From the sequence record OR670491: a DNA stretch of 64,000 nucleotides; one strand, 5' to 3'. Below the pieces are notes generated by a model that saw nothing but the letters and a program-made list of their open reading frames with translations, searched no databases and had not been told where the DNA came from. Positions 2,378 through 38,100 of the stretch are shown here, one piece after another; position 1 is the stretch's first letter; the number at the start of each line of letters is the position of its first letter. This DNA comes from Escherichia phage vB_EcoM_JNE01. The position numbers and the translations under genes were made by a program.

Positions 2378-2943
2378 AGGCCAAAGATTTAGCGGCATTA
2401 CTGATGCAGAATCCTGAAATGGAAGTGTATCATGAAAATTGGCACAGTGATGATATGTGCGAGGTATATTATTCCCCAGAAACAATTGATGGGATTGAAA
2501 TTACTCCCAGTGGTGTATTCATCAAGACTGCAAGTGTTGATTTCAATGACAGTCGTGAAATTAAACTCCCGTGTGATAAACCAATCATTGGAACAATTGA
2601 CCTAGTATTCCACCAGGAACGTCAGATTGATACTGAAAATGAAGATGGTGAACAGGTTGCTGATGTTGCCAATGTCATTTTCCCTTTTTACTATTCTGAT
2701 TCACAACCAATGCACGGTAATGATTTCTTCCGTGAACTTTTGGAAGATGGTGAGGTATATGGTCGTGATGGAAATGTATTTGCACTTGATGAGAACTACG
2801 AACCAGACCACAACACTTGGCAGTTCTATACACCAGAAGATGTTATGGAAGTAAAAGTACTAACATCATTTGACGAACAGTGGAATGTACAGTATACTTC
2901 AATGAAGTTTGAAGAAGCTAAAAAATACTTTGAAACCAAATAA
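2374..2943 (+). CDS. hypothetical acidic protein
   Basis: 189-aa ORF; ATGA start/stop overlap with the upstream gene. Confidence 0.5.
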   Translation: MKAKDLAALLMQNPEMEVYHENWHSDDMCEVYYSPETIDGIEITPSGVFIKTASVDFNDSREIKLPCDKPIIGTIDLVFHQERQIDTENEDGEQVADVANVIFPFYYSDSQPMHGNDFFRELLEDGEVYGRDGNVFALDENYEPDHNTWQFYTPEDVMEVKVLTSFDEQWNVQYTSMKFEEAKKYFETK

Positions 2944-2968
2944 GATTATCAAATAAGGATCTAATAAT

Positions 2969-3253
2969 ATGAAAATTGTTGCAAGTGCGTGGATGGGATT
3001 TGAGGATAAAACTACTGGTTACGAATCTAGCCTAATCGTTGAAAGTACTGAAGAATTAAAACGATTTAAAGCTGAAACCGATGATGATGTATTTGATATT
3101 GTATACACTTATCATCTCATCCCTAACGATACCGACTATGACAAATATTATTATGATCCAGACAGCCTCATGGAGCTAGTGTCTTGTACTGAAAATGAAG
3201 TAAATGAGACAACGGCACTACTAATGTTGAGTACTGTCCCAGCAAAGGGGTAG
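2969..3253 (+). CDS. hypothetical protein
   Basis: 94-aa ORF with AAGGA SD. Confidence 0.5.
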   Translation: MKIVASAWMGFEDKTTGYESSLIVESTEELKRFKAETDDDVFDIVYTYHLIPNDTDYDKYYYDPDSLMELVSCTENEVNETTALLMLSTVPAKG

Positions 3254-18405: not shown

Positions 18406-18432
18406 ATGTCATTCCATGAAAGGAGAATTTCA

Positions 18433-19119
18433 ATGGCTACAATGCTTGATCGATATGGTGTTCCGCTCGCTGGCGGTGGTCGTATCTCTATGAAACAACC
18501 AAAAGCAAAATACAAATTCCGTGTTATTTTCTTTGGTTTCGGTGCTAATGATGACGGTAATATGATTACACTTGATACTAACACTGTTGGTGCGGTATCA
18601 GTATCACATGAAAACGTAACTGTTCATAGCTATAACAGTTCTGCACACTACAAAGGCAAATATACTTGGGATAGTATCGAAGTTGCATTCCGTGATTCAG
18701 TAGGTAACGCTTCTTCAAAAGCTCTTTACAACCAAATGCGTAAAGAATTTAACTACTACAGTCAAGAATCTCGTATGACTGATTCACAATTCAAATTTGA
18801 AATGTGGATTCAGGAACTTGATGGTTCTAACAGTGAAAATGCTACTAACCTATACGAAGGTACACTAAGTACTTGGGTATGTCAGGGTTGCTTTATTGAA
18901 TCCAGTAACTTTGGCGACTGGGATTATTCATCCAGTGAAGCTCAAGTTATCACCATGACTGTTCAACCTGATGGTTGTGCTAAATTGGGTCCAAATGGCG
19001 AAGCGTTCGGTGATGAAGTTAGTGCGTTCGGTAATCCGTCCACCTCTACCTCTATCAGCGGTGCACAAACCAACATTAGTAGTACTACTCTTCCAGATAG
19101 TAACTTCTACGAAAACTAA
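18433..19119 (+). CDS. tail tube protein
   Basis: Directly downstream of sheath; paralog of the next gene (shared PKAKYKFRVI, RDSVGNAS); AAAGGAGA SD. Confidence 0.6.
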   Translation: MATMLDRYGVPLAGGGRISMKQPKAKYKFRVIFFGFGANDDGNMITLDTNTVGAVSVSHENVTVHSYNSSAHYKGKYTWDSIEVAFRDSVGNASSKALYNQMRKEFNYYSQESRMTDSQFKFEMWIQELDGSNSENATNLYEGTLSTWVCQGCFIESSNFGDWDYSSSEAQVITMTVQPDGCAKLGPNGEAFGDEVSAFGNPSTSTSISGAQTNISSTTLPDSNFYEN

Positions 19120-19133
19120 TTTAATAAAGTTTA

Positions 19134-19161
19134 AGCCTCGAACTTGTTCGGGGCTTTTTTT
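19134..19161 (+). terminator. intrinsic terminator (AGCCTCGAAC/GTTCGGGGCT)
   Basis: Stem-loop with one G-U pair, followed by TTTTTTT. Confidence 0.6.
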
Positions 19162-19164
19162 ATG

Positions 19165-19180
19165 CTAAATAAAGTATATA
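19165..19180 (+). promoter_or_regulatory. candidate late-promoter motif (CTAAATAAAGTATATA)
   Basis: Shared motif. Confidence 0.3.
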
Positions 19181-19206
19181 CCTTAAAAATATAATAAGAG
19201 GTTGCT

Positions 19207-19983
19207 ATGGCAAATAACATGATTAGTAAATATGGCGTTCCTTTACCATCTGGTCGTAACCGTTCCATGTTACAACCTAAAGCAAAGTACAAATTCAGAG
19301 TGATAGTTTATAACTTCGGTACTGAAATTGATGAACGTGACCATATTGCATTAGACGTAGATAAAGTTGATCGTCCTACAGTATCATTCAATACTCATAA
19401 ACTTTTTCAATTTACTACGAACACATCATATATTGGTAGTTACGATTGGGAACCAATTACACTAACAATCCGTGATTCTGTCGGTAACGCTTCTGCAAAA
19501 GCACTATCCAGACAATTACAAAAACAAATTGACTTTCAGCGTAGAATTACATCCAGAACAGACCAAGACTATGGCTCTTATAAGTTCGGCATTGTTATTC
19601 AAATGTTGAATGGGCGAAACTCAGATGATACAATAGATAACTTGGCAAGAAATACTGCTACATCAGCAGCTACATCGTTAACAAATAATGGTGGTCTTGT
19701 CAATGCTGTTGACCAATTTATTGGGGGTTCAACATACAATAGTGCAGGTGTTATGGAATACTTTGTACTAACTGGATGTGTCATTCAAAATATATCTTAT
19801 GATTCGTTGGATTATAGTTCTAGTAATTCTGTGGAAATGACTATTTCAATTAAGCCTGATAACTGTATCCAGTTTGACAACATTGAAGAAATGTACAGTA
19901 CTCGTATTAACTCACTATTACCTGAAAACGTCAATCAAGGATTAGATATAATTGACCGTGTTTTCGGTAGTATCGGATTTTAA
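19207..19983 (+). CDS. tail tube protein paralog
   Basis: 258 aa; clear similarity to the 18433 product. Confidence 0.55.
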   Translation: MANNMISKYGVPLPSGRNRSMLQPKAKYKFRVIVYNFGTEIDERDHIALDVDKVDRPTVSFNTHKLFQFTTNTSYIGSYDWEPITLTIRDSVGNASAKALSRQLQKQIDFQRRITSRTDQDYGSYKFGIVIQMLNGRNSDDTIDNLARNTATSAATSLTNNGGLVNAVDQFIGGSTYNSAGVMEYFVLTGCVIQNISYDSLDYSSSNSVEMTISIKPDNCIQFDNIEEMYSTRINSLLPENVNQGLDIIDRVFGSIGF

Positions 19984-19995
19984 GGGGAGTGAAAT

Positions 19996-22115
<2,120 letters not shown>

Positions 22116-22145
22116 CTTAAACTACTATATTATGGAGTTATTATA

Positions 22146-22679
22146 ATGAACAAATTACAACAAATCCTCACGGATAACAAACCTGTCTATGAATATCGTG
22201 TAAAATTTGCTTTTGAGCCAAGCAACGAACAACTAAGTAAAGTAACACAACGCCTTATGGATCGTTATGATGCTTTCGAAGTTGGTGGCCTTAAGAAAAC
22301 TATCTTCATGGAAAAACCACTTGATTTTTATGATTTAGATTGTGGTGAAATTTGGATGTTTGATTTTAAATGTAACCGTGGTGTTCAATCAAACGTACTA
22401 ATGTATGAAATTGGTAATCTACTAAGCGTAACCGAAGCACTAATTCGTATTCGCAGTAAAGATGAACCACGTCAAATTGAAATGACTGATCTGGAAGATG
22501 ATATCGATTTTGATGATTATGAACCAGTTATTGGTGTACCATTTGGTGCTCCAGAAGACAGTACTGATATCGCTGGTCAGGAACGTGCTGAAACCGCAGT
22601 CAAAGATGCAATTGATGCAGTAAAAAAGGACAATAAATACTCTCAATATATGAGTGCTGGTTTTGGTAAAAAGGATTAA
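22146..22679 (+). CDS. hypothetical protein
   Basis: 177-aa ORF. Confidence 0.5.
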   Translation: MNKLQQILTDNKPVYEYRVKFAFEPSNEQLSKVTQRLMDRYDAFEVGGLKKTIFMEKPLDFYDLDCGEIWMFDFKCNRGVQSNVLMYEIGNLLSVTEALIRIRSKDEPRQIEMTDLEDDIDFDDYEPVIGVPFGAPEDSTDIAGQERAETAVKDAIDAVKKDNKYSQYMSAGFGKKD

Positions 22680-22682
22680 GAT

Positions 22683-23228
22683 ATGAGTATACTCAATGAA
22701 ATGTTTGAATATGACGATCAAGAATTGAATGAAGCTCGTCCTTATAGCCGTTCTCAAGGTGCAATCGATAATGCAAAAGGGAAAGTTAAAGGATTCTTCG
22801 GTAGTGGTCAGGTTGAGCAAGGTGCACAAGAAGTTGGTGCTGAAGCAAACCGTCTATGGGCTGAGTTTAAACGTTATATAGGTCGTAAGTACGGTAAAGC
22901 ACAACCTTCAGTGCCATTTGCTGATGTTGCACAATTTTTTAAAGGTAACAACTTAGATGTTAAGCATCTTGGTAACAATCCACGTCGTTCCTTTACACCT
23001 AAAGATGTAGGTGCAGCATTACTTGCGGCAGCACGTGAAAGTATGGATCTTTATCGTGATCAGGAAGAAGCTCCTGCTGAACAACCTAAGCCGCAAGGTA
23101 AACCACAAGAAGAACCTCAACAACAACCAGAACCTAAAGCTGCTCCACAGCCTGGTGCTAGTGTTCCTGATGTTCTACAAAAACTAAGTCCAGAGCAACG
23201 CGATCAACTATTACGTATGCTTTCGTAA
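22683..23228 (+). CDS. hypothetical protein with Pro/Gln-rich C-terminus
   Basis: 181-aa ORF with AAGGA SD. Confidence 0.5.
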   Translation: MSILNEMFEYDDQELNEARPYSRSQGAIDNAKGKVKGFFGSGQVEQGAQEVGAEANRLWAEFKRYIGRKYGKAQPSVPFADVAQFFKGNNLDVKHLGNNPRRSFTPKDVGAALLAAARESMDLYRDQEEAPAEQPKPQGKPQEEPQQQPEPKAAPQPGASVPDVLQKLSPEQRDQLLRMLS

Positions 23229-23241
23229 GGAGAATTAACAC

Positions 23242-24753
23242 ATGGATAATTTTTTCAGTACTGATAGTACAGTAGTACCTAATTTATATGTGTACACGTC
23301 ACATACTGGTGCAAAATATGTGTTTGTTGAAGGTTTATGGTTCAATGACAGTAATATGTTAATGGTTGATCCTCAAAAATATCCATCTCTATATGCTTGT
23401 GCTCGACAACAGATTGTTGAGCACAATCTTTCAACTAACAATACTTATAAAATTGGTCAGACATATATCCAAGAAGGTATAGAATGCACGTTCTTGGGTG
23501 AAAACCGTTTCAATTCAGCAAAAGGTCTTATCCTAACTGAGAGTGAGATTATTACAGAACTGATGGCTGATGATCATCGTGTATATAACGTCACAAAAGA
23601 AACACTTCAAAAAGAATGGAATGCTTTAAAATTCTACATTCTCCCTCCATATGCTGATGATATTTCAATTCCTGCTGGGATGGAAGTTAATGGTTTTAAA
23701 TTTATTCCTAAGAATCATCGTTTTGTTGATAGTCGTACTGGACGCCCAGTTGATCCTGCAATGACACGTAAACTAAGTGAAGAAGGTCTTAGAATTGCAC
23801 GTCAGTTAGCAACTAAAAACAAACTAGTTCCTATCAAATCTACCTTAGTTCAAGGTAATACCCGTTCAGAATGGAATGGTAAAGAATTTTGTGATAATGA
23901 TGGTAATGTTGTGATTCCTGCTCAAAATGCACATTCTATTATTAGTGCTTACCAACAATTTGTTAAAGCGAACCCTGCTGACTTCCCAAGCCTAACTGGT
24001 GATGATGGTCAGGGTGAACAACGTTTTGGAAGTGGTGAGAAGCCTGAACAACCAAATAATAAAGAAAAACTGCCAGTATTTGCTACTAAAGAATCTATCA
24101 ATGAAGCAGATGAAGAAGAAGTATCAGTAACTGTACCACATGGTTATCGAATTACTTCTAAATCTGGTAAAACTTACATTAAACAAAATGATAAATGGTT
24201 TGATGTAGATACTAAAAAACAACTTAATACTAGTGCCGCTAAAAGTGTTGAACGTGCTGCACAGAATAGTATTATTCAGCACAATGAATCAGGTGCAATG
24301 AAGATTGGAACAACAATTAATTCCAAGAAAGGTAAACAATATAGTTATATTGGTGGTAACCGCTTCATTTCCGACGATGGTAAGATTATACCAAAGTCTG
24401 CTGCTGAACAAATCCTTGCTCGTTATGATGAAGAACGTGCTGCTAAAGAGGACAAGCCTGAAGAAGTTAAACAGGATGAAGTTAAATCCGAAGTTGAAGC
24501 TCCGAAGCCTCCAAAGGAAGAACAGAAACCTAAAGCAGAAGAACCAACAGAGGAACCAGTTAAATCTGATGATGAAGTTTCTCCTGAAGTTCAATCTATT
24601 GCTTCTAAAATTAAAGAATCCCCTCACGCACAAAGGATTAAAGTACTGTTAACTCGTGGTGATGAGGTATCTCTGTTAGCAGCAGATATCCTACTATCGG
24701 GTAAGAAGGATGAAACAGTTCAAATTTTAAAATCATTAAATAAGAATGATTGA
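23242..24753 (+). CDS. hypothetical protein with internal G-K-x-Y repeats and charged Lys/Glu/Pro tail
   Basis: 503-aa ORF with AAGGAGA SD; repeated GAKYVFVEG / GQTYIQEG / GKTYIKQN / GKQYSYIGG. Confidence 0.5.
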   Translation: MDNFFSTDSTVVPNLYVYTSHTGAKYVFVEGLWFNDSNMLMVDPQKYPSLYACARQQIVEHNLSTNNTYKIGQTYIQEGIECTFLGENRFNSAKGLILTESEIITELMADDHRVYNVTKETLQKEWNALKFYILPPYADDISIPAGMEVNGFKFIPKNHRFVDSRTGRPVDPAMTRKLSEEGLRIARQLATKNKLVPIKSTLVQGNTRSEWNGKEFCDNDGNVVIPAQNAHSIISAYQQFVKANPADFPSLTGDDGQGEQRFGSGEKPEQPNNKEKLPVFATKESINEADEEEVSVTVPHGYRITSKSGKTYIKQNDKWFDVDTKKQLNTSAAKSVERAAQNSIIQHNESGAMKIGTTINSKKGKQYSYIGGNRFISDDGKIIPKSAAEQILARYDEERAAKEDKPEEVKQDEVKSEVEAPKPPKEEQKPKAEEPTEEPVKSDDEVSPEVQSIASKIKESPHAQRIKVLLTRGDEVSLLAADILLSGKKDETVQILKSLNKND

Positions 24754-24775
24754 TAACTAAAAGGATTTATTCAAA

Positions 24776-25783
24776 ATGGCTAAAAAAATTAACGAAGCAC
24801 AAGTTAAAATCGATATCGCAGGTCTAGAATCTGAAGATTTAGAAACCCTATCACGTATGCTTGCACTAGCTGGTCAAGCTGAACGCCAAGCACCTACTGT
24901 TGCTCCAGTTCCTTCTATGGGGTCTATGACCCCATCTCTCTCCCCAATTGAACCACTAGATATGGATTCTTTAGGTGGTAGCGAAGAAGAAGTTGGTGTA
25001 GAAGTAGGGGCTGATGTTGCTGAACCAGTACAAGATCCACTAGATTCAGCAGTTGATAGTTTATCTGCTGATGTAGGTGATTTTGGTGCTGATGATGAAA
25101 TTGAAATGGATGCAGAAATTAGTGCTGATCCAGTAGGCGATGATTTCAGTGCAGAAGAAGAAGTTGAAGATATGGGTCTAGGTCTTGGTGGTCAACCGAC
25201 ACTAGAATCTGTTGAAGAAGAAGAGGAAGAAGAAGTAATAGAAGAAGAATTCGATTTCAGCCGTATGCTTTCCCTAGCTGGTATTGATGACGAAGACGAT
25301 TCCTATTCAGTTGAAGACAACCCAGATACTGAAGTTAAAATGTCAGAGAATCAATTCCTACCAGACCTATCTATTTCTGAAGAAGATGAGTCCAGTGATA
25401 CTACTTCATTTGGTCCTTATCCTTCTGAAGCTGACGCTGTTCGTGATGCACAACGCAAGACTAATGGTGTTGAAGGTGATAACTTTGTCGTTACTGCTAA
25501 AGGTAATCAGTTCTACTGGAGTCGTGTTGTTCAAGAAGATCTTGACAATGTTCCAGATCCAGAGTACTATGACAATGAAGGAAACGAGAACCGTGTTCAC
25601 AAGTTTGAACCAAAATTCCCTGGTACTGCGTTAGGTGATAACCCACTAAACGTAAATGAGAGTGAAGAAGATGAAGACTCTCTAGAAAGTAATCCAGAAC
25701 TAGAAGATGATTCTGATGAAGAAGTAGAAGATATCTTTGAAAGTCTCCAAGCTAAGTACGAGAAATTTCTTGGAGGGAAATAA
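24776..25783 (+). CDS. highly acidic protein (Asp/Glu-rich)
   Basis: 335 aa; long D/E runs such as SVEEEEEEEVIEEEF. Confidence 0.55.
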   Translation: MAKKINEAQVKIDIAGLESEDLETLSRMLALAGQAERQAPTVAPVPSMGSMTPSLSPIEPLDMDSLGGSEEEVGVEVGADVAEPVQDPLDSAVDSLSADVGDFGADDEIEMDAEISADPVGDDFSAEEEVEDMGLGLGGQPTLESVEEEEEEEVIEEEFDFSRMLSLAGIDDEDDSYSVEDNPDTEVKMSENQFLPDLSISEEDESSDTTSFGPYPSEADAVRDAQRKTNGVEGDNFVVTAKGNQFYWSRVVQEDLDNVPDPEYYDNEGNENRVHKFEPKFPGTALGDNPLNVNESEEDEDSLESNPELEDDSDEEVEDIFESLQAKYEKFLGGK

Positions 25784-25786
25784 AAA

Positions 25787-26161
25787 ATGGGATATAATTA
25801 CCGTGAACTCGTTGAAGCGTTAGATGAAATTACTTCACAGGAAGACGAAAGTTTTTCTGTGGAAACACCTTCAGATGATGTTGTAATCGATTTACTGAAA
25901 GATATCACCAAATGCCTTATCCACTGTGTGGATAAGGTTAAATCAGGTGAAGATGTTGACGAAATCGCTGAAAAATTACAAAAAGCTCGTGACATACTAG
26001 ATGATATGAAGTATAATGATGAAAGTACTGAAGCAGTTGAAGAAGACTGCTGTTACGGTACTGAAGACATGGCTCCTACAATTGGGAAAGATGGCGTCCA
26101 AGACTACAGTGTTAAAGATGCTCCTTCTTATGCAGCGAGACATGGTTTCGTAGGAATGTAA
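25787..26161 (+). CDS. hypothetical acidic protein
   Basis: 124-aa ORF. Confidence 0.5.
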   Translation: MGYNYRELVEALDEITSQEDESFSVETPSDDVVIDLLKDITKCLIHCVDKVKSGEDVDEIAEKLQKARDILDDMKYNDESTEAVEEDCCYGTEDMAPTIGKDGVQDYSVKDAPSYAARHGFVGM

Positions 26162-26164
26162 GTT

Positions 26165-26542
26165 ATGATGCCTACTCCATCGAACAGTACTGAATATCAG
26201 AATAATGTTCTCCACAAGATAAAGGAGATACATGAGTCAGACGCAGCTATAACAGACCGTATGCTTCTGATGTCAATTTTTGAAAATTTCAGAACTGGCG
26301 GTGGATTGAGATTGAGTAAGTACGGATTTAAATTGTGTGAAGAAAATAAACTTTACGAATTTACAAAAATCCCCTTGCGAAAAGATTTCAAAAGCTCTAT
26401 AATGTTTACATCGCTTGACAGGATATGTGCTGAACCTTACTATGTTGACGGTCAGTACATATACCTCGCAGACATAATGATTGTTACTGAGTTGACATTA
26501 TGCTGCGATGACTTTAAAATGTTATTCTCGAATCATCAGTGA
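26165..26542 (+). CDS. hypothetical protein
   Basis: 125-aa ORF. Confidence 0.45.
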   Translation: MMPTPSNSTEYQNNVLHKIKEIHESDAAITDRMLLMSIFENFRTGGGLRLSKYGFKLCEENKLYEFTKIPLRKDFKSSIMFTSLDRICAEPYYVDGQYIYLADIMIVTELTLCCDDFKMLFSNHQ

Positions 26543-26566
26543 TTCGAAAATAAAGAAAAAAAGTTC

Positions 26567-26594
26567 TTGACAAGTTAAAATGATGTGATATAAT
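26567..26594 (+). promoter_or_regulatory. sigma70 promoter P1 (TTGACA, 16-nt spacer, TGaTATAAT) with A-tract upstream and TGATG/CATCA inverted repeat across the -10
   Basis: Consensus hexamers read directly. Confidence 0.55.
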
Positions 26595-26658
26595 GAGCAT
26601 CACGAAGTAAGTTTTCAAAATCACATGATGTGAGATTGAAAAAAAAGAAAAAAAGTTG

Positions 26659-26686
26659 TTGACAAGGTTGAACGATGTGATATAAT
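26659..26686 (+). promoter_or_regulatory. sigma70 promoter P2 (TTGACA, 16-nt spacer, TGaTATAAT) with GTTGAAC/GTTCAAC inverted repeat flanking the -10
   Basis: Near-duplicate of P1 about 90 bp downstream. Confidence 0.55.
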
Positions 26687-26750
26687 GTTCAACATCAAGA
26701 CGACGAAGTGATTGACCTTTTTAAACACACGGATGATTCATGAAGTAACA

Positions 26751-26798
26751 AAGGAACTGATAAGTTAAAAATACTTTTAACACAGTTCCTTTACTTTT
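26751..26798 (+). terminator. leader stem-loop / possible attenuator (AAGGAACTG/CAGTTCCTT with nested GTTAAAA/TTTTAAC)
   Basis: 9-bp outer stem, U-rich 3' side, between P1/P2 and the proximal promoter. Confidence 0.4.
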
Positions 26799-26808
26799 GC
26801 CATCGGAT

Positions 26809-26817
26809 TGGTATAAT
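26809..26817 (+). promoter_or_regulatory. proximal extended -10 promoter (TGgTATAAT)
   Basis: About 40 nt upstream of ATG 26856. Confidence 0.4.
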
Positions 26818-26855
26818 AGAAATCTCAAATTTATCCAACTAAAAGGAAACTATAC

Positions 26856-28187
26856 ATGTCTACTCAAAACGCTGATATCCTGAACGTAAAACTGACTCCT
26901 AAGAAAGCTAAAGCAGCAATGGCACTGGCTGACATGATTCAAGACAGCCTGATGATTTGGGGTAGCCCTGGTATCGGTAAATCTGCAATTGCCCGTCAAT
27001 ACGCTGATGAGAACTACCCACTGCGTAAAGACAATCTGGCTAAGATTGAGTTCATGAAGCAGCAAATTGAAGTTGATGTAGAAAATGCTGACCAACTACG
27101 CCGTGAACTGGCAGCGTTCGAAGCTAAACTGATTGACCAAGACACCAACTTCATCGACTTCCGTTTGTCACAGATTGAACCAAGTGACCTACGTGGTATC
27201 CCAGTACCAGAGAAGATTTTCCTTGATATGGATGGTAAGCAACTGATTGAATCTGAACTGGAAACTGCACAAAACTACATCGCTGAAACAGCAGTAGTAT
27301 GGGCTGCACCAAAAGTACTGAAACTAAGCCCTGAATGGAAAGGTGTTATCCTGTTCGACGAAATTAACTCTGCAATGCCTATCGTGCAAGCAGCTTCTTA
27401 TCAGCTAATCCTCGACCGCTGTGTTGGTGAGATGAAGCTACCTAAGAAAGCTCTGATTCTGGCAGCAGGTAACCGTGAAACTGATGGCGGTGTAACCTTC
27501 TCTCTAGCTACACCACTGCGTGACCGTATGACTCACATCGAGATGGTTCCTTATCATCAAGATTGGATTAACGACTACGCAATTGCGAAACGTCTGAACC
27601 CAGCAACTGTTGCGTTCATCAACAACACTGGTGCTAAGTACTTCAACACCCTTAGCCCACAAGATCCTTCTCACAGTGGTGGTACTTCCCCACGTTCATG
27701 GGAAGCAGTAGCACGCTACGAAGACCTGAAGAAAGGTGGTCAGAGTATCGATAAAGAAGTGTTCCGTGCTCTAGTTGCAGGTCGTGTTGGTGAAGGTGTT
27801 GCTACCGAGTACATCGAATATGTAGAAAACGTATCTAAACTACCAGATACCATGTCTATCCTAAACGGTGAGATTAAAGAGATTGACGCTTCGCTAGATA
27901 TTTCTGCGAACTACTTCATCTCTCTGAACCTGGTCTATAAAATTATCGACCTGTACAATGAGAAGCAAGAACAACGTCTGGATGTGGCTGAATGGGGTAA
28001 ACTGTGCAACAACTTCATCATCTTCCTAGACCATAACTTCTCTGCAACTCAAGCAGAACTGGCAGTACTAGCGATTCGTACCATCACTCAGGCACGTGTA
28101 GCGATTTCGACTAAAGATGTACCAGCGTTCACTGACTTCATCAAGAAGTACACTGACCTAGTACGTAAAGCACGCTCCCTAAGCTAA
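26856..28187 (+). CDS. MoxR-type AAA+ ATPase (CobS/AAA_5-like) with a long insertion between Walker A and B
   Basis: Walker A GSPGIGKS, Walker B ILFDEIN; coiled-coil-like insert of about 120 aa between them. Confidence 0.75.
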   Translation: MSTQNADILNVKLTPKKAKAAMALADMIQDSLMIWGSPGIGKSAIARQYADENYPLRKDNLAKIEFMKQQIEVDVENADQLRRELAAFEAKLIDQDTNFIDFRLSQIEPSDLRGIPVPEKIFLDMDGKQLIESELETAQNYIAETAVVWAAPKVLKLSPEWKGVILFDEINSAMPIVQAASYQLILDRCVGEMKLPKKALILAAGNRETDGGVTFSLATPLRDRMTHIEMVPYHQDWINDYAIAKRLNPATVAFINNTGAKYFNTLSPQDPSHSGGTSPRSWEAVARYEDLKKGGQSIDKEVFRALVAGRVGEGVATEYIEYVENVSKLPDTMSILNGEIKEIDASLDISANYFISLNLVYKIIDLYNEKQEQRLDVAEWGKLCNNFIIFLDHNFSATQAELAVLAIRTITQARVAISTKDVPAFTDFIKKYTDLVRKARSLS

Positions 28188-28263: not shown

Positions 28264-29688
28264 ATGTCTCAAGAACAAAAATTCAAATTCGAAGAAGTTT
28301 CAGCTTCAGTACAGAAAGAGTGCCAAGACCGTCTTATTCTCGCACGTACATCTTTGATGCTTACTAAACCATTCTTTGGTGTACTGGCATCCCGTCTTCG
28401 TCCAGTACCTAACAACACATGGTGTCGTACTCTGGCAGTAGATGGTAAGCACCTTTTTTATAACGTAGAATTCGTAATGGGTATTCAAGACCCACTCAAG
28501 AAAGACGCATATGAAGCAGCAATGCGTGAAGCTCATCCAGAAATTACTGACGAGCAGTTGAAAGAAATGACCGAAGGCTTGACTGACGAAAACCTGATTG
28601 CAGTTATTTGTCATGAAATTCTTCACTGTGCATACGACCACTTCTTGCGTCGTGGTATGCGTGACCCACAACGTTACAACCGTGCTGCTGACTACGCGAT
28701 TAACCAGATTCTGGTTCGTGAAAAGATTGGTAAAATCCAGAATGGTTGGTTGTATGATCCAAAATATGACGGTATGACCGCAGAAGAGATCTACAACATT
28801 CTTCTAGAAGAAGATGAAAAACAAGAACAACAAGAAGGTGAAGGCGAAGGCCAACCACAACAAGGTGGTAGTGGTCAGGGTGAAGGGCGTTCACGTGGTA
28901 CATTTGGTGACCTTGCTGATGGTAAAGGTAAAGGCACTCCAAAAGGTACTACCATTGACCAACATGACGTTCCACAAGATGGTGATGGCGGTCAGTCTGA
29001 AGAGAAGAAACGTGAATATATGGACGATTTCAAAACCGCAATGATGAACGCGGCTCGTGCAGGTGGTACACCAGCAGAAATCGAACGTATGATCAATAAC
29101 TTCAAAGCACCAAAAATTGACTGGCGTGCAAAACTGCAACGTACTTTGCGTAGCTGGTTGAAATCTGACGCTACTTATCAGAACCCAAACCGTCGTTCAT
29201 GGGGTGCAGGTTTTGGTTCTAACGGTTCATTCTACGGGAACCCAATTTTCCCAGGCATGAAACCAGATGATGATATTGATATCGCAATTGCACTAGATGC
29301 ATCCGGTTCTATCTCTGAAGATATGCTCCGTGACTTCATCAGTGAAGTACTGGGTATCACTAAACAATTCAAACAGTTTAAGATTCGTATCATGACATTT
29401 GATACTCAAGTTTATACTGTAATGGATTACAAAACTGGTGAAGAACGTAAGATTCTTGAATATCCAGTTAAAGGTGGTGGCGGTACTGACTTTGAAGCAG
29501 TGTGGGTTCACATGAAACACGACAACTACAAGCCTAAACAACTTGTAATGTTTACAGATGGTGAGCCGTGGCAGTCATGGGGTGATCCTAACTACTGTAA
29601 GACACTGTTCGTTATTCACAGTAATCCAGAGAAAGTCGCACCATTCGGTGAAACCGTACACTACGAGTACGAAAATAAGAAAAAATAA
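28264..29688 (+). CDS. vWA-domain protein with N-terminal HExxH metallopeptidase-like domain (MoxR partner, CobT/DUF2201-like)
   Basis: HEILH motif; Gly-rich linker; MIDAS-type DASGS at the start of the C-terminal vWA fold. Confidence 0.75.
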   Translation: MSQEQKFKFEEVSASVQKECQDRLILARTSLMLTKPFFGVLASRLRPVPNNTWCRTLAVDGKHLFYNVEFVMGIQDPLKKDAYEAAMREAHPEITDEQLKEMTEGLTDENLIAVICHEILHCAYDHFLRRGMRDPQRYNRAADYAINQILVREKIGKIQNGWLYDPKYDGMTAEEIYNILLEEDEKQEQQEGEGEGQPQQGGSGQGEGRSRGTFGDLADGKGKGTPKGTTIDQHDVPQDGDGGQSEEKKREYMDDFKTAMMNAARAGGTPAEIERMINNFKAPKIDWRAKLQRTLRSWLKSDATYQNPNRRSWGAGFGSNGSFYGNPIFPGMKPDDDIDIAIALDASGSISEDMLRDFISEVLGITKQFKQFKIRIMTFDTQVYTVMDYKTGEERKILEYPVKGGGGTDFEAVWVHMKHDNYKPKQLVMFTDGEPWQSWGDPNYCKTLFVIHSNPEKVAPFGETVHYEYENKKK

Positions 29689-30696: not shown

Positions 30697-31293
30697 ATGA
30701 AAATAACCGAATTAGATGAAGCAATTCGTGGCTTTTCTAATACGTTTTTCAGTGGCGGGGCAGATGGTGCTGACCGCCATTTTACATTATATGCTCTTGA
30801 AAAGGGATTCAATGTAATCAACTTTTCTTTCAGGGGTCATAATCATAGTGTAGATGAAGATACAATATTAGAAATACCTTCTCATATTTTATGTGATAGT
30901 ACAGTACTGAAACAATTAAACATGGCATGTTACTCTTTGCAGCGTAAAGTACCTAAGCCTGGTTCTTACGTATTCAACTTACTAGCACGTAATCGTTATC
31001 AAATTCTAAACACAGAACGAGTTTATTGTATTGCAAAAATCGAATCACCAACTAGAGTTAGTGGCGGTACTGCATGGGCAGTTCAAATGTATATGGATAG
31101 TGTTGACAATCCTGAAATCTATTGTTATGATATGAATTCAAAAAGTGTGTATACATTTGACAATACAAATAAAGAGTTCGTTGAAGTATTCACTATTCCT
31201 GCACCACATGGTAATTGGACAGGAATTGGTTCTCGAAATGCAACTGTTAAGCATTTTGAGCATTTCAAAACATTTTTCAAGGAAGACAAATGA
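30697..31293 (+). CDS. hypothetical protein with DprA/Smf-like (SLOG-type Rossmann) signature
   Basis: FSGGADGADRHFTLYAL and LARNRYQIL ... SGGTAWAVQ resemble the DprA motifs SGxAxGxDxxAH and RNR...SG; recalled only. Confidence 0.35.
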   Translation: MKITELDEAIRGFSNTFFSGGADGADRHFTLYALEKGFNVINFSFRGHNHSVDEDTILEIPSHILCDSTVLKQLNMACYSLQRKVPKPGSYVFNLLARNRYQILNTERVYCIAKIESPTRVSGGTAWAVQMYMDSVDNPEIYCYDMNSKSVYTFDNTNKEFVEVFTIPAPHGNWTGIGSRNATVKHFEHFKTFFKEDK

Positions 31294-32219
31294 AACAACT
31301 ACAAGAGCTATATCAAAAAATTCTAGATGAAGGCGTAGAAAGCGTTGACCGTACTGGTGTTGGTACAATCAAACTAATCGGACAACAAATGCGTTTTGAT
31401 TTGTCGGAAGGTTTTCCAGCAGTGACAACTAAACGTTTAGCTTGGAAAGCAATGACCTCGGAATTGTTATGGTTCATTGAAGGTTCCCATGATGAACGTC
31501 GTCTATGTGAAATTCTACATGGTACTCGTGATTGGGAAAAAGTGACAATCTGGACTGGTAATTACAAAAACCAAGGTGTTAATCTTGGATACACCGATGG
31601 TGAGTTGGGTCCAGTTTATGGCAAACAATGGCGTTGCTGGGAAGATTACAAATTCAGTGCTGTTACCGAAGAAATTCAAGAATTGAAAGACAAAGGATAC
31701 AAAGTACTGGATTATACAGGTTCACATGGTGTTGTTATGAAACGCACCACTGACCAGCTAATGGATCTAATCAATGGTATCAAAGAAGATCCATACGGTC
31801 GTCGTCACATTCTTTCCGCATGGAACGTTGGTGAACTTGACCAAATGACATTACCACCATGTCATAGCTTTGTTCAGTTCTGTGTTGTTCAAGGTAAACT
31901 AAGCTGCATTCTACATCAACGTAGTGCTGATATGTTCTTGGGTGTTCCATTCAATATTAGTAGCTATTCTCTACTAACACATATTATTGCACAAATTACT
32001 GGGTTAGATGTTGGTGAGTTTATTTGGAATGGTGGAGACTGCCACATTTACAAAAACCACGTTGAACAAGTAAAAGAACAACTACTTCGTGAGCCACACG
32101 AACTACCAGAATTATGGTTAGATCCTTCAATTACTTCTATCGAAGATTTGAAAATGAATTCATTCAAACTACTGAATTACAATCCAATGGCAACAATCAA
32201 AGCACCAATGGCTGTATAA
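31290..32219 (+). CDS. thyA: thymidylate synthase (ThyA type)
   Basis: MRFDLSEGFPAVTTKR, ELLWFIEG, active-site PPCH, SADMFLGVPFNI; 309 aa. Confidence 0.9.
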   Translation: MKQLQELYQKILDEGVESVDRTGVGTIKLIGQQMRFDLSEGFPAVTTKRLAWKAMTSELLWFIEGSHDERRLCEILHGTRDWEKVTIWTGNYKNQGVNLGYTDGELGPVYGKQWRCWEDYKFSAVTEEIQELKDKGYKVLDYTGSHGVVMKRTTDQLMDLINGIKEDPYGRRHILSAWNVGELDQMTLPPCHSFVQFCVVQGKLSCILHQRSADMFLGVPFNISSYSLLTHIIAQITGLDVGEFIWNGGDCHIYKNHVEQVKEQLLREPHELPELWLDPSITSIEDLKMNSFKLLNYNPMATIKAPMAV

Positions 32220-35173: not shown

Positions 35174-38100
35174 TTATGAAGTACGTTGAGCAATAAACAA
35201 GTCAATAACGTTACTTACACCATCATATACTGCTTGGTAGATAGTAACACTGTTCGCTGCTAGGTTCTGTTCACCATCCACAATAGAGTAAGATGGGTCA
35301 GCAGTTAGTACACGGTTACCAGTTGCATCTTGCTTCGCATACATGAAGATAGATGCAGCTTTACCACCACCAATCAGGCCAGCAATTGGTGCTAGTGTGG
35401 TGTTCTGGTCTAGAGTGATAAAGTACACACTAGTAGAGCCATCAGGAGTCCATGTACCAGCCGGAGCAACAGTACTGGAAGTAACTTGTGATGGGATAAC
35501 ATCATACTTCTTAGTAGTTACAGAAGTAGTTACAAAGTTAGCTTCGTCAGTAGTGAATACACCAGCAACTTCAATACCTTTTTCGAAAGTAGCTTTCTCA
35601 ATGAAAGTACTTGTTCCGTTAACTGTGATAACATCTGCTGCTGCATCACCTAGTGTTACGCTACCAGTGGTAGTTAGTGCACCAGATATATTTACAGCCG
35701 CTAGGGTACTTGTACCAGTTACTGCTAGAGTTGAACCGATTGTTGCAGTGCCAGAAGTTGTTAGGTTAGTAACAGAAGCTTCTGCTAGTGTTGCTTTACC
35801 AGTTACACCTAGTGTACCACCAACAGTTGCTGCACCAGTTACGCCTAAAGTAGTTCCAACAGTTACTGCACCAGTGAAGGTTCCACCAACACCACTTACG
35901 TTACCACTGAACTCACCATCAACGCCTTTAACTTTACCAGTACTGGTGATTGCACCAGAACCTAAAGTACCAGTGATTGTCGCTGCTCCACCAACTGTTA
36001 AGTTACCAGTTGATTGCATTGAACCACCTTTAACTAGGTTAGTACTTGTTAGTGATTTAACGTTTACATCAGCATTTGATTGGTCAACGTTGGCATATAG
36101 AACACCACCAACTGTAAAGTTACCAGTAGTAACAACGTTACCGTTAACTGTTAAGTTGTTGTTTTGTGATCCAACTGCACCAAATGTACCAGAGTTTGCA
36201 ATAACTGCTGCGTCAGTTGAAATGTTACCAACTGCGGATAGAGTTGCAGAAGCTTCAATTGCATATGGTTCTAGTGTTTGACCACTTACGTCGATATCGG
36301 CGTTAATGCCACCTTCAACACGTAGTTTACCAGCAATAAAAGTATCAGGGAAAATCTGAACAGTTTCAGGTTGTTCACCAACTTTAACACCAACTACTAG
36401 GTTTGCACCAGTTTTAACTGTACCAGTTTCTAGTGAACCAGAAGTTACTTTGCCAGTTACTTTTGCATCAGCAGCTACAGTTAGTGCATCACCGGAAGCG
36501 GAGGACAATGCCAATGATGGAGCAGAAACAGCACCAGTTACACCTAAAGTGCCACCAACAGTTGCGTTACTTGTTACACCTAGTGTACCACCGAATGTAC
36601 CGTTTGTATCACTGTGGATAGCAGCAGAAGTAGACAAACTCTTCGCAACGATATCAGATGTTGTTAGGTCTAAACCACCAGCAGGAGTAAATGTACCGCT
36701 TACTGTTAGGTCATTAGTGAAAGATGAATTACCAGCCATAGTTAAACCAGCAGTACCAACAATACTTGTTGCAGAAACTGCACCAGTATCTAGTGAACCA
36801 GTTGTTGCTTTACCAGTTACACCTAAAGTATTACCTAAAGTAACAGCACCAGTTGTAGATAAAGTACCAGCTACAATTGCATTACCTTTAACATCAAGAC
36901 CAGTACCAGAAGCATTGGACAATGTTAGGGACGGAGCAGAAACTGCACCAGTTACACCTAGTGTACCAGCGATAGTTGAGTCACCACCAATAGTTGCCCC
37001 CGCAGTGCTCTTAATTGTGGTTGCCACGTCAAGGCTGTTTGCAGTAATATCAGAAGTAGATAGATCCAAACCACCCACTGGAGTGAATACACCGTTAACC
37101 GTTACAGCATCAGCAAATGTTGCAGCACCAGTTACACCTAGTGTACTACTAAATGTTCCAGATGTTGCAGAAACTGCACCAGTATCTAACGAACCAGTAG
37201 TTGCTTTACCTGTTACACCAAGAGTACCACCAACAGTTTGATTTCCGGTAACAGTAAGAGTCCCAGTTTGTGCATCAACAGTTGTGATTTTACCTGAACC
37301 ACTGATATCAGTAGTAGATACACCACCACTTAGAGTACTCAAACCAGTTGCTTTTAGGGTTGTCGCAACATCAAGACTGTTTGCTGTAATGTCTGCACCA
37401 CTTAGATCCAAACCACCTTCAGGAATAAATTCACCTTTAACAGTTAGTTTTTGAACTACTGAATCACCAGTTACGGTTAGAGCAGAAGAAGTTAAACCAC
37501 CGTTCAAAGTTGCTGCACCAGTAACACCAAGTGTACCACCGACAGCCGCATTAGAAGTTACTGAAGCGTTTTCTAGAGTTGCAGTACCGGAGATATTTGC
37601 ACCTTGTGCAGTGATACTACCAGTATCAACACGTACACCACCAGCTACAACTTGAATACCACCTGTATTAACAGTTAGTTTATTACCAACAGTTGCTGCA
37701 CCAGTTAGAGTGCTTGTACCAGCTACAGACAAGTTACCGGAAACGGCTGGGCTACCAGTTACATTACCAGTTGTTAGAACTAGATCAGCACCAACAGTAG
37801 TATTACCGACAGAAGCTAAAGTGTTTGCAGTTACATCAGAAGCAGATAGGTCAAATGTACCAGCTACTACCAAGTCACCACCGATATTTGCACCACCAGT
37901 AGTAGTGATTGATTTAGCACTAACATCAGTTGTTGCTAGGTCAATTGCACCTGGAGTTACAGTTCCGGTTACAGTTAAATCACCTGTTACTTTAGTGTTG
38001 CTTGCAATTTCCACACCAGTTTCGTTAGAAATGGTTGGAGTTACCAAGGAAACAGCAGTTGCTTGACCAGATACTGTTAGTGAAGTTCCAATTACTGCAT

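What the first reader, a model, noticed from the sequence alone, without database searches (positions are those of the whole stretch)
24776..26161. Two consecutive strongly acidic proteins
The 335-aa and 124-aa products are dominated by Asp/Glu runs. They could be scaffold or internal virion proteins or DNA-mimic inhibitors of host nucleic-acid enzymes; sequence alone cannot tell these apart.
Basis: inference. Interest (0 to 1): 0.35.

Follow-up and report, generated by a model that had tools for sequence, protein, structure and literature searches.

The report
Acidic virion proteins of jumbo coliphage
The two very acidic proteins are real, conserved, mostly disordered virion proteins of a 350-kb Rak2/121Q-like E. 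coli phage; they most likely sit inside the phage head rather than acting as DNA-mimic enzyme inhibitors, and their exact job is still untested.

Summary
ORFs 24776-25783 (335 aa, 28.7% D/E, net -78) and 25787-26161 (124 aa, 25.8% D/E, net -20) are the two most acidic of about 65 genes in the window.

The window is an Asteriusvirus jumbo myophage, 99.4% identical to Escherichia phage Turkey5. Both proteins belong to families found only in Rak2-like jumbo phages (PHROG 15988 and 14971, "virion structural protein").

Orthologues were detected in purified virions of RaK2, CBB and phAPEC6.

The genes lie in a tight, late-type operon with tail-tube and head-completion genes. AlphaFold shows a mostly disordered polyanion with short conserved docking elements, not a rigid DNA-like surface.

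Both proteins, and a neighbour, start with an [L/I]-x-E motif at residues 5-10. In this phage group, and in T4, that motif marks the prohead proteins, which in T4 are cut by the S77 prohead protease.

Best reading (about 0.5): internal head cargo, analogous to but not homologous with T4 gp67 and the T4 internal proteins. They are candidate parts of the uncharacterised inner body of 121Q-type capsids. A DNA-mimic role is not excluded (about 0.1). The finding is ordinary to moderately interesting.

The parts
24776..25783 (+). Gene for the 335-aa polyanionic virion protein (orthologues: 121Q gp560, phAPEC6 gp267c, CBB_213, RaK2 gp050, GAP32_207)
   Evidence: ORF and composition. PHROG 15988, E=1.8e-116. 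Orthologues. Virion MS.
24776..24796 (+). Residues 1-7, MAKKINE|A: conserved N-terminal [LI]xE motif, putative prohead-protease site and capsid-targeting peptide
   Evidence: I-x-E7|A8 is present in 67/74 homologues, and E7 and A8 are invariant. The same signature is found in the MCP, scaffold, protease, gp228c and gp229c of phAPEC6.
24830..24889 (+). Residues 19-38: amphipathic helix with the first 'LSRMLALAGQ' motif
   Evidence: Nearly invariant block in A1/A3. AF2 helix 19-38, pLDDT 72-81. Peptides 12-27 and 28-38 were seen in CBB virions.
25244..25294 (+). Residues 157-173: second 'FDFSRMLSLAGI' motif, a repeat of the first, flanked by acidic disordered linkers
   Evidence: These are the only two matches to the motif in all six frames of the window. 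Conserved columns. Resemblance to the scaffold C-terminal tail is significant in only some phages.
25406..25525 (+). Residues 211-250: roughly 40-aa beta-alpha-beta-beta mini-domain (GPY..TNG..F.V..G..FYWxR), the only confidently folded part
   Evidence: pLDDT above 90. Invariant G213, P214, T229, N230, G231, F237, W248, R250. Multiplied in tandem in some homologues. Peptides 207-239 were seen in CBB virions. No PDB or BFVD fold match.
25724..25771 (+). Residues 317-332: C-terminal helix VEDIFE|SLQAKYEKF, containing a fully conserved I-x-E|S motif
   Evidence: E322|S is present in 74/74 homologues. AF2 helix 317-332, pLDDT about 88.
25787..26161 (+). Gene for the 124-aa acidic virion protein (orthologues: 121Q gp561, phAPEC6 gp266c, CBB_214, RaK2 gp051). 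It starts 3 nt after the previous stop.
   Evidence: PHROG 14971, E=1e-39. MS: RaK2 gp051, 2 peptides; CBB_214 peptide ELSGMIADGSVQDLSTLTSDLK in two gel slices.
25787..25816 (+). Residues 1-10, MGYNYRELVE|A: L-x-E ending at residue 10, the same register as the T4 IPII/IPIII targeting peptide MKTYQEFIAE|A and gp24 MAKINELLRE|S
   Evidence: Strict motif in 14/17 homologues, relaxed P3 in 17/17. T4 sequences. T4 protease motif and CTS: PMC9026906.
26054..26158 (+). Residues 90-124: conserved C-terminal motif YGTEDMAP..DGVQDY..APSYAARHGFVG, the only part kept in the 69-aa Vibrio-phage counterpart
   Evidence: Alignment A2. Vibrio phage 2.275.O ORF 9238-9447 of L011.
22683..23228 (+). Neighbouring 181-aa virion protein (RaK2 gp048 family) that also carries N-terminal L-x-E motifs (MSILNE|M, ELNE|A)
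21090..26542 (+). Tightly packed co-oriented gene array: gp4-like head completion, then six small genes including the two acidic ones. Gaps are 3-30 nt and no terminator-like site separates the genes (the scan's one site in this stretch, 21265-21289 on the + strand, lies inside the gp4-like gene). Late-type ATAAATA motifs lie at 22108 and 22633.
   Evidence: The same gene order is found in phAPEC6, Ecwhy_1, CBB, RaK2, 121Q and Vibrio phage 2.275.O.

Best explanation
Both genes encode late, virion-packaged, largely disordered polyanionic proteins specific to Rak2/121Q-like jumbo myophages. They most likely are internal head cargo.

Proposed mechanism:
1. They are made late, from the tail-tube and head-completion operon.
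2. They enter the prohead core through a short N-terminal T4-CTS-like peptide ending in [L/I]-x-E. The large protein may also use two amphipathic 'RMLxLAG' helices.
3. The phage's T4-type S77 prohead protease trims them at conserved [L/I]-x-E sites.
4. The processed polyanions stay in the DNA-filled head. Because they repel rather than bind DNA, they would occupy DNA-free volume (the axial inner body seen in 121Q and phAPEC6) and/or leave with the DNA at ejection.

Shown: real genes, conserved acidity, disorder, virion association of the orthologues, operon context, presence and conservation of the motifs.

Inferred: head-interior location, protease cleavage, and the physical role.
For: Identity and family:
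- The window is 99.4% identical to Escherichia phage Turkey5, an Asteriusvirus.
- PHROG 15988 and 14971 are 'virion structural protein' families.
- The families are confined to Rak2-like phages: 90 and 14 clusters, and 83 representatives out of 1.84 billion proteins.

Virion MS of orthologues:
- RaK2 gp050 (1 peptide) and gp051 (2 peptides).
- CBB_213 (5 peptides) and CBB_214 (1 peptide). Four CBB_213 peptide sequences map to residues 12-38 and 207-239, with a fifth inferred from coverage.
- phAPEC6 gp267c (1 peptide, 16 aa, equal to residues 12-27 by coverage arithmetic).
- Low peptide counts are expected, because K/R-free stretches of more than 100 aa make few tryptic peptides.

Late context:
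- The gene array is tight, and ATAAATA motifs lie upstream of structural genes.
- The strong sigma70 promoters appear only after the block.

Head machinery:
- The congeneric phage phAPEC6 has a Peptidase_S77 protease and a Gp23-type MCP.
- T4 gp21 cuts after L/I-x-E, and a 10-residue N-terminal CTS targets the internal proteins (PMC9026906).

The N-terminal signature ([LI]xE with E at residue 6-10):
- Present in 5/5 prohead genes of phAPEC6 and in 22/25 across phAPEC6, RaK2, CBB, Vibrio 2.275.O and PA5oct.
- Present in T4 gp21, gp22, gp24, gp67, gp68, IPII and IPIII.
- Present in only 3 of about 91 other Asteriusvirus genes examined, and in none of the sheath or tube genes.
- Carried by the 335-aa, the 124-aa and the 181-aa ORF at 22683, and conserved within the families.

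Structure: mean pLDDT 59.8, with 130/335 residues below 50; 63.2 for the small protein.

Precedents and open slot:
- T4 gp67 is 44% D/E.
- A third acidic virion protein (phAPEC6 gp228c, RaK2 gp091) sits between portal and protease.
- 121Q and phAPEC6 have an inner body whose proteins are unidentified (PMC7247149; PMC5646251).
Against: - No experiment places either protein in the head rather than the neck, tail or surface fibres.
- The genes sit next to tail-tube genes, far from the portal-protease-scaffold-MCP module.
- MS counts are low. The phAPEC6 list also contains thymidylate synthase and the MoxR ATPase, so single-peptide hits there are weak. phAPEC6 did not report gp266c, and the CBB comparison table shows no entry in its second Yes/No column, which I read as GAP32, for orthologues 207 and 208.
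- The [LI]xE signature is short and was found post hoc. Background is about 3% here and about 9% in T4 loci, and it is more likely by chance in E-rich proteins.
- Three metagenomic orthologues of the small protein have F at P3, and the 69-aa Vibrio-phage counterpart lacks a strict motif in its first 10 residues.
- There is no detectable homology to T4 gp22, gp67, gp68 or to phAPEC6 gp228c (hhalign probabilities 0.1-2.7%).
- The resemblance to the scaffold tail is not significant in the window's own genus (P=0.38).
- A net -78 protein among packed DNA is electrostatically costly.
Confidence: 0.5

Rival explanations
1. The proteins are virion-associated but not head-internal. They would be parts of the neck or head-completion complex, tail accessories, or the hair-like fibres that decorate phAPEC6 and CBB capsids and tails. 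A long acidic disordered chain would make a flexible, non-sticking filament.
For: The genes lie directly after the tail sheath, three tail-tube paralogues and the gp4-like head-completion gene. phAPEC6 and CBB carry unassigned fibres on capsid and sheath (PMC5259590). The protein is mostly disordered.
Against: The family is present in all Rak2-like phages, and the CBB authors expected the hair genes to be absent from GAP32. None of the window's sheath or tube genes carries the N-terminal [LI]xE signature that these proteins share with prohead proteins. Low MS signal argues against a protein present on every hexamer.
Confidence: 0.2
2. The proteins are DNA-mimic or polyanionic decoys against host nucleic-acid enzymes or defence systems. 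They would act in the cytoplasm, or be packaged and ejected ahead of the DNA, as T4 IPI* is delivered.
For: Extreme conserved negative charge. Virion packaging would allow delivery before any gene expression. The small protein is predicted as three helices carrying many carboxylates. Nothing tested here excludes it.
Against: The large protein has no rigid fold to display a DNA-like charge array (130/335 residues with pLDDT below 50). There are no Pfam, NCBIfam, PDB-sequence or fold matches to any protein, known mimics included. The genes are in a late structural operon with no early promoter. The most conserved parts are not the acidic stretches but short hydrophobic motifs and a mini-domain, as expected for docking elements joined by spacer-like linkers.
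Confidence: 0.1
3. The proteins are non-structural assembly factors (scaffold-like chaperones) that are removed from the finished particle. The MS signals would then be traces or contaminants.
For: Only 1-5 peptides were found per study. Non-virion enzymes appear in the phAPEC6 list. Acidic scaffold and core proteins such as T4 gp22 and gp67 are largely degraded and expelled.
Against: The large protein was detected independently in three phages from three laboratories, and the small one in two of them (RaK2, CBB). The same N-terminal peptide was inferred from coverage arithmetic in phAPEC6 and RaK2 and read directly in CBB, and CBB peptides came from both ends of the large protein in several gel slices. 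Few peptides are expected from the sequence itself.
Confidence: 0.12

Closest known systems
T4 gp67 (prohead core protein, precursor of an acidic internal peptide) and gp68
   Same: Proteins of a T4-type prohead with an S77 protease. gp67 is 44% D/E, with an N-terminal helical part carrying L/I-x-E sites followed by a polyacidic tail. By my own recollection of the T4 literature, fragments stay in the head; the review read here says most core-protein fragments leave it.
   Different: No detectable homology (hhalign probability 2.7% or less). The gene position differs: the phage has its own small genes between portal and protease (gp229c, gp228c). The window protein is four times larger, with a folded mini-domain and repeated LAG motifs.
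T4 internal proteins IPII/IPIII (and gp24) with the 10-residue capsid targeting sequence
   Same: An N-terminal decapeptide ending in [LI]-x-E followed by A or S: MKTYQEFIAE|A (T4) versus MGYNYRELVE|A (124-aa protein). The products are packaged in the head.
   Different: The T4 IPs are basic (IPIII has 34 K/R and 25 D/E), whereas these proteins are strongly acidic. There is no sequence relationship beyond the motif. Cleavage and targeting are untested here.
phiKZ inner-body proteins (gp89, gp90, gp93, gp95, gp97, gp162)
   Same: Clustered genes for head-internal proteins of a jumbo phage that has an inner body (PMC13282480). The title of Thomas et al. 2012, cited there, says they are processed by the prohead protease. 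121Q and phAPEC6 show the same bubblegram feature.
   Different: phAPEC6 proteins have no similarity to phiKZ inner-body proteins according to PMC7247149. The protease family and phage lineage differ. Membership of these acidic proteins in the inner body is only a hypothesis.
DNA-mimic anti-restriction proteins (T7 Ocr, ArdA, T4 Arn)
   Same: Small to medium, very acidic phage or plasmid proteins.
   Different: By my own knowledge, those are compact rigid folds expressed early. Here the large protein is mostly disordered, the genes are in a late structural operon, the products are in virions, and no family or fold match exists.
phAPEC6 gp228c / RaK2 gp091 / CBB_254 (acidic virion protein between portal and protease)
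   Same: Same phages, 26-31% D/E, N-terminal MANLKLLQE|A signature, detected in virions.
   Different: Not homologous (hhalign probability 0.4%). Located in the head gene module.

Membership tests
PHROG 15988 / 14971 (Rak2-like 'virion structural protein' families) | Full-length profile match | tested here: met
   E=1.8e-116 over residues 1-335 and E=1e-39 over residues 3-124. Orthologues are syntenic in 121Q, phAPEC6, CBB, RaK2 and Vibrio 2.275.O.
PHROG 15988 / 14971 (Rak2-like 'virion structural protein' families) | Detected in purified virions | not testable with these tools
   Not testable for this phage itself. Published MS shows it for the orthologues in RaK2, CBB and phAPEC6.
T4-type prohead-core cargo (CTS-bearing substrates of the S77 protease) | The phage encodes a T4 gp21-type (Peptidase_S77) prohead protease and a Gp23-type capsid | tested here: met
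   phAPEC6 gp227c matches PF03420 at E=9.9e-21, and gp225c matches PF07068 at E=1.3e-89. These come from the congeneric genome, because the head module lies outside the window.
T4-type prohead-core cargo (CTS-bearing substrates of the S77 protease) | [L/I]-x-E motif within the first 10 residues, conserved in the family | tested here: met
   INE7|A in 67/74 homologues. LVE10|A/S in 14/17 (strict) or 17/17 (relaxed). Controls.
T4-type prohead-core cargo (CTS-bearing substrates of the S77 protease) | Actual cleavage at those sites, and dependence of packaging on the N-terminal peptide | not testable with these tools
   In the CBB peptide table, residues 12-27 and 28-38 occur six times each and residues 4-11 never. 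This is compatible with trimming at E7 but is not proof.
T4-type prohead-core cargo (CTS-bearing substrates of the S77 protease) | Location inside the capsid | not testable with these tools
   No head/tail fractionation data were found. No solved structure of any Rak2-like phage exists in the PDB.
T4 gp22 / gp67 / gp68 protein families (homology) | Detectable sequence or profile similarity | tested here: not met
   hhalign probabilities 0.1-2.7%.
DNA-mimic proteins (Ocr, ArdA and similar) | Compact rigid fold displaying a DNA-like array of carboxylates | tested here: not met
   For the 335-aa protein: mean pLDDT 59.8, 130 residues below 50, and only a 40-aa domain is confident. For the 124-aa protein: three helices at pLDDT about 80 plus disordered acidic linkers, which is inconclusive for that one.
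DNA-mimic proteins (Ocr, ArdA and similar) | Match to a known mimic family or fold | tested here: not met
   No Pfam or NCBIfam family above threshold. No PDB sequence hit. No Foldseek hit.
DNA-mimic proteins (Ocr, ArdA and similar) | Binding and inhibition of a DNA-binding host enzyme | not testable with these tools
   Needs biochemistry or plating assays.
Inner-body proteins (phiKZ sense: abundant, DNA-embedded, axial head proteins) | The phage has an inner body | not testable with these tools
   Reported for 121Q and phAPEC6 by bubblegram imaging. Not known for Turkey5.
Inner-body proteins (phiKZ sense: abundant, DNA-embedded, axial head proteins) | High copy number (100-200 per virion) and axial location | not tested
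   Spectral counts for CBB_213 and CBB_214 are low (2-4 per slice, against 44 for CBB_210). However, few tryptic peptides are possible.
gp22-like scaffold C-terminal tail motif (...L[SA]GI-x-KK) | Significant similarity between the scaffold tail and the LAG motifs of the acidic protein of the same phage | tested here: inconclusive
   Vibrio 2.275.O: rank 1 of 2526 ORFs, P<0.0005. CBB: rank 4, P=0.02. phAPEC6: P=0.38. RaK2: P=0.32. A narrow motif HMM does not find scaffold tails.

The most novel reading that the evidence does not exclude
The conserved five-to-six-gene block at 22146-26161, with the two polyanionic disordered proteins as its DNA-repelling elements, encodes the so far unidentified inner body of 121Q/phAPEC6-type capsids. 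This axial spool would be built independently of, and without homology to, the phiKZ inner body. Recruitment into the prohead would use a T4-like N-terminal [LI]xE targeting peptide and 'LAG' helices that imitate the C-terminal tail of the scaffolding protein. The proteins might then be ejected as a polyanionic decoy ahead of the genome.
Probability: 0.2. Interest if true: 0.6.

Novelty: new member of a known kind. Interest (0 to 1): 0.33.

Why it matters
Rak2/121Q-like phages are among the largest cultured phages and are used as therapy candidates, yet over 80% of their genes have no assigned function. The proteins that form their capsid inner body are unknown.

If these acidic proteins are protease-processed head cargo, they give concrete, testable candidates for that structure. 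They would also extend the T4 rule of a short N-terminal targeting peptide ending in L/I-x-E to a distant jumbo-phage lineage. That rule could be used to load foreign cargo into very large capsids.

If instead they are ordinary minor virion proteins, the finding simply confirms existing annotation.

Tried and rejected
1. Homology routes gave nothing beyond the phage group.
   - Pfam, NCBIfam, PDB sequence profiles and Foldseek against PDB gave no match; Foldseek against BFVD returned two significant matches, both unnamed entries (73% and 24% identical to the query) that I take to be family members.
   - hhalign against T4 gp22, gp67, gp68 and phAPEC6 gp228c gave probabilities of 2.7% or less.
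2. I guessed that the single CBB_214 peptide was semi-tryptic, starting after an L-K-E site. This is wrong. The raw table shows the fully tryptic 22-mer, and the odd coverage value comes from a longer ORF model.
3. The T4 late promoter TATAAATA is absent from the whole window (0 found against 6.5 expected). Only the shorter ATAAATA reported for CBB fits.
4. An HMM built from the two LAG motifs of close homologues did not retrieve scaffold C-termini. The pairwise and shuffle test is significant only for the Vibrio phage and marginal for CBB, so this stays a lead.
5. I tried to read proteolytic fragments from the distribution of CBB_213 peptides over gel slices. Slices 02 and 05 show only N-terminal peptides, and slices 09 and 11 show both ends. 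The slices could not be calibrated by size, so I drew no conclusion.
6. The genomic context of a distant homologue (P0147, contig L010) showed a T4-like or jumbo phage with a gp15-like gene nearby, but nothing that settles head versus tail.
7. Literature searches found no paper that discusses these acidic proteins.
Full report
**What is there.** The window carries ATG-initiated ORFs at 24776-25783 (335 aa) and 25787-26161 (124 aa), three nucleotides apart, each with a Shine-Dalgarno-like sequence.
- The large product has 96 D/E and 18 K/R (net -78, pI 4.05). It has ten acidic runs of three or more residues, including EEEEEEE.
- The small product has 32 D/E and 12 K/R (net -20, pI 4.12), but only two short acidic runs.
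- They are the two most acidic of about 65 putative genes in the window (D+E 0.287 and 0.258, against a mean of 0.142 and sd of 0.042).
- The acidity is conserved across homologues (median 27% and 25% D/E).

The one qualification is that "runs" is overstated for the small protein.

**Whose genes they are.** Nine kilobases around the finding are 99.4% identical to Escherichia phage Turkey5 and about 81% identical to many Asteriusvirus jumbo myophages (121Q, PBECO4, phAPEC6).
- The orthologues are 121Q gp560/561, phAPEC6 gp267c/266c, CBB_213/214 and RaK2 gp050/051, and GAP32_207/208 by the notes in the CBB record.
- The gene order is conserved out to a marine Vibrio jumbo phage. It runs: sheath, three tail-tube paralogues, gp4-like head-completion protein, then six small genes that include the acidic pair, then a MoxR-type AAA ATPase and a DUF2201 metallopeptidase/VWA protein.
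- Both proteins match PHROGs labelled "virion structural protein" (15988 at E=1.8e-116; 14971 at E=1e-39).
- They have no Pfam or NCBIfam family.
- The large family has 90 clusters in 5.8 billion proteins, and 83 representatives in 1.84 billion. The strong full-length matches that carry a source name are Rak2-like phages or enterobacterial records; the weaker ones match only parts of the profile in proteins of other lengths.

- RaK2 virion MS lists gp047-gp051, with gp050 at 1 peptide and gp051 at 2 peptides (PMC3622015 Table S3).
- CBB lists CBB_213 (5 peptides, 18.9%) and CBB_214 (1 peptide) (PMC5259590).
- The CBB raw peptide table places four CBB_213 peptides at residues 12-27, 28-38, 207-217 and 233-239, with a fifth (218-232) inferred from the coverage figure. 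It places the CBB_214 peptide at residues 43-64, in several gel slices.
- phAPEC6 lists gp267c with one peptide and 4.9% coverage (PMC7247149). By arithmetic this is the 16-residue peptide 12-27, and the same holds for RaK2 gp050.
- Low counts are expected. The proteins contain K/R-free stretches of more than 100 residues and offer only about eight usable tryptic peptides.
- Caveat: the phAPEC6 list also contains thymidylate synthase and the ATPase, so single-peptide hits there are weak. Its list does not include gp266c (the term 'gp266' occurs nowhere in the text), and the CBB comparison table shows no entry in its second Yes/No column, which I read as GAP32, for orthologues 207 and 208.

**Anatomy (alignments A1 to A4).** The large protein has these parts, in order:
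1. A nearly invariant N-terminus, MxKK-INEA-..GLESxDLETLSRMLALAGQAE.
2. A variable acidic linker.
3. A second copy of the motif (FDxxRMxSLAGI). The two copies are the only such matches in the window.
4. Another acidic linker, followed by LLPDLSLDED.
5. A roughly 40-residue mini-domain, GPF..TNG..F.V..G..FYWxR. It is multiplied up to four times in some homologues.
6. PGTALGDNPL, an acidic tail, and a C-terminal helix VEDIFESLxxKY.

AlphaFold with 74 sequences gives a mean pLDDT of 59.8. Of the 335 residues, 130 score below 50. Only the mini-domain (211-250, beta-alpha-beta-beta) scores above 90, and there are helices at 19-38, 161-167 and 317-332.

The small protein is predicted as three helices (5-17, 30-52, 57-73), then a disordered acidic linker, then a conserved C-terminal motif YGTEGMGP..DGVQ.Y..SYAARQGFVG. 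That motif is the only part retained in the 69-aa Vibrio counterpart.

No solved or predicted structure resembles either model.

This is the architecture of spacer-like polyanionic linkers joining short docking elements. It is not a rigid DNA-shaped surface.

**Expression context.**
- The genes from 21090 to 26542 are packed with 3-30 nt gaps, and no terminator-like site separates them; the scan's one site in the stretch (21265-21289) lies inside the gp4-like gene.
- The CBB authors' late motif ATAAATA occurs on the coding strand only five times in the window. Four of these lie just upstream of structural genes, at 15326, 18391, 22108 and 22633.
- Two perfect sigma70 promoters appear only after the block, at 26567-26594 and 26659-26686, ahead of the ATPase gene.
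- The acidic pair therefore looks like late structural genes, not early anti-defence genes. This step is an inference.

**A prohead signature.** The congeneric phAPEC6 has a Peptidase_S77 (T4 gp21-type) prohead protease and a Gp23-type capsid protein. T4 gp21 cuts after L/I-x-E, and the first ten residues of IPIII (MKTYQEFIAE|A) target proteins into the prohead core (PMC9026906; sequences).

In phAPEC6, all five consecutive head-module proteins start with [LI]xE whose E falls at residue 6-10:

| Protein | N-terminus |
|---|---|
| MCP | MSQLLNE\|S |
| scaffold | MSKLEKLLKE\|S |
| protease | MSSMIRE\|W |
| gp228c | MANLKLLQE\|A |
| gp229c | MLKDIFE\|S |

.

- Across phAPEC6, RaK2, CBB, Vibrio 2.275.O and PA5oct the count is 22 of 25.
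- In T4 the same signature picks out gp21, gp22, gp24, gp67, gp68, IPII and IPIII.
- Elsewhere it is rare: 3 of about 91 other Asteriusvirus genes examined, and none of the sheath or tube genes. In the T4 loci it occurs in about 5 of 57 other genes.
- In the window, the 335-aa protein (MAKKINE|A), the 124-aa protein (MGYNYRELVE|A) and the 181-aa protein at 22683 (MSILNE|M, ELNE|A) all carry it.
- It is conserved within the families: 67/74 for the large protein, and 14/17 strict or 17/17 relaxed for the small one. Further conserved sites lie at about E172, at E202, and at E322|S (74/74).
- In CBB virions the peptide covering residues 4-11 was never seen, while its two neighbours were each seen six times. 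This is compatible with trimming but is not proof of it.

The signature is short and was noticed after the fact, so I treat it as moderate evidence.

**A second lead.** The C-terminal tails of the gp22-like scaffolds end in ...L[SA]GI-x-KK and resemble the LAG motifs.
- For the Vibrio phage the match is striking: DFSMDLDRLTKIAGI against DFMEDLDRLGKLTGL. It ranks first of 2526 ORFs, with P<0.0005 by shuffling.
- For CBB the match is marginal (P=0.02).
- For phAPEC6 and RaK2 it is not significant (P=0.38 and 0.32).
- A narrow motif HMM does not find the scaffold tails.

This lead is inconclusive.

**Interpretation.** The best-supported reading (about 0.5) is that both proteins are internal head cargo of a T4-type prohead. 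They would be targeted by the N-terminal peptide, trimmed by the S77 protease and retained in the filled head.

They are functional analogues, not homologues, of T4 gp67 (44% D/E) and of the T4 internal proteins. hhalign probabilities against gp22, gp67, gp68 and gp228c are 2.7% or less.

Bubblegram imaging shows that 121Q and phAPEC6 have a 91 x 18 nm inner body with no assigned proteins and no similarity to phiKZ inner-body proteins. This gene block is therefore a reasonable candidate for that structure. That is the most novel reading (about 0.2).

The rivals are:
- a neck, tail or hair component (about 0.2), favoured by gene position;
- a packaged or cytoplasmic DNA-mimic decoy (about 0.1), not excluded but disfavoured by disorder, late context and the lack of any family match;
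- an assembly factor seen only as a trace (about 0.12).

Virion association of the family is already in the literature and in the annotation. What this work adds is the domain anatomy, the prohead-type N-terminal signature and the link to the unassigned inner body, all of which are untested. Interest is modest.

Noticed in passing
window 26543-26855 (sites at 26567-26594 and 26659-26686, + strand): Two perfect sigma70 consensus promoters (TTGACA-16-TATAAT, each with an extended -10 TG) lie in the 313-bp gap before the ATPase gene. They form an early or middle transcription island inside an otherwise late structural region.
   Followed up: partly
window 26856-28187 and 28264-29688: A MoxR-type AAA ATPase is paired with a DUF2201 metallopeptidase/VWA protein (N4 gp24/gp25-like). 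The ATPase orthologue, phAPEC6 gp265c, was reported in virion MS with 6 peptides. Its role in this phage is unknown.
   Followed up: partly
whole window; ATAAATA at 15326, 18391, 22108, 22633 (+): The T4 late promoter TATAAATA is absent from the window (0 found against 6.5 expected). The shorter ATAAATA sits just upstream of the sheath, the first tube gene, and the genes at 22146 and 22683.
   Followed up: partly
window 18406-21090: Three tandem tail-tube paralogues of 237, 258 and 364 aa (PHROG 4542 and 13438).
   Followed up: no
window 21090-21518: The gp4-like head-completion protein has a TnsA-endonuclease N-terminal fold (PF08722). In the Turkey5 record it is labelled 'Tn7 transposition protein tnsA', which is probably a misnomer.
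   Followed up: partly
window 22683-23228: A 181-aa virion protein (RaK2 gp048 family) whose PHROG is labelled 'Hsp70 heat shock protein' without any Pfam support. It also carries N-terminal L-x-E motifs and may be prohead cargo too.
   Followed up: partly
window 1651-3253: Four consecutive small acidic ORFs (20-22% D/E, net -13 to -27). All match PHROGs of unknown function.
   Followed up: no
window 31290-32219: Thymidylate synthase begins MKQLQE|L, a chance or real [LI]xE signature. Its phAPEC6 orthologue gp259c appears in the virion MS list with 3 peptides.
   Followed up: no
L008 9216-10064 (phAPEC6 gp228c); L012 1496-2269 (RaK2 gp091); L013 1414-2238 (CBB_254): A third strongly acidic virion protein (26-31% D/E, net -40 to -54) is encoded between portal and protease. 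That is the position held by gp67 and gp68 in T4.
   Followed up: partly
homologues P0022, P0046, P0057, P0071 (alignment A1, columns 300-450): The 40-aa mini-domain GPF..FYWxR of the large acidic protein is duplicated in tandem, up to four copies. This behaviour is typical of a binding module.
   Followed up: no
L010 (metagenomic phage contig) 10001-11563, 8060-8533 (-), 6922-7452 (-): The motif 'LR[IL]AGIQ' recurs in three different ORFs of one distant phage. In several distant homologues the MxKLNEAQ module lies about 115 residues inside a longer protein.
   Followed up: no
window 35174-41536 (-), 41675-46561 (-), 58988-63973 (-): Three very large minus-strand ORFs (2120, 1628 and 1661 aa). 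They are presumably tail or baseplate proteins, as annotated in relatives, and were not examined.
   Followed up: no
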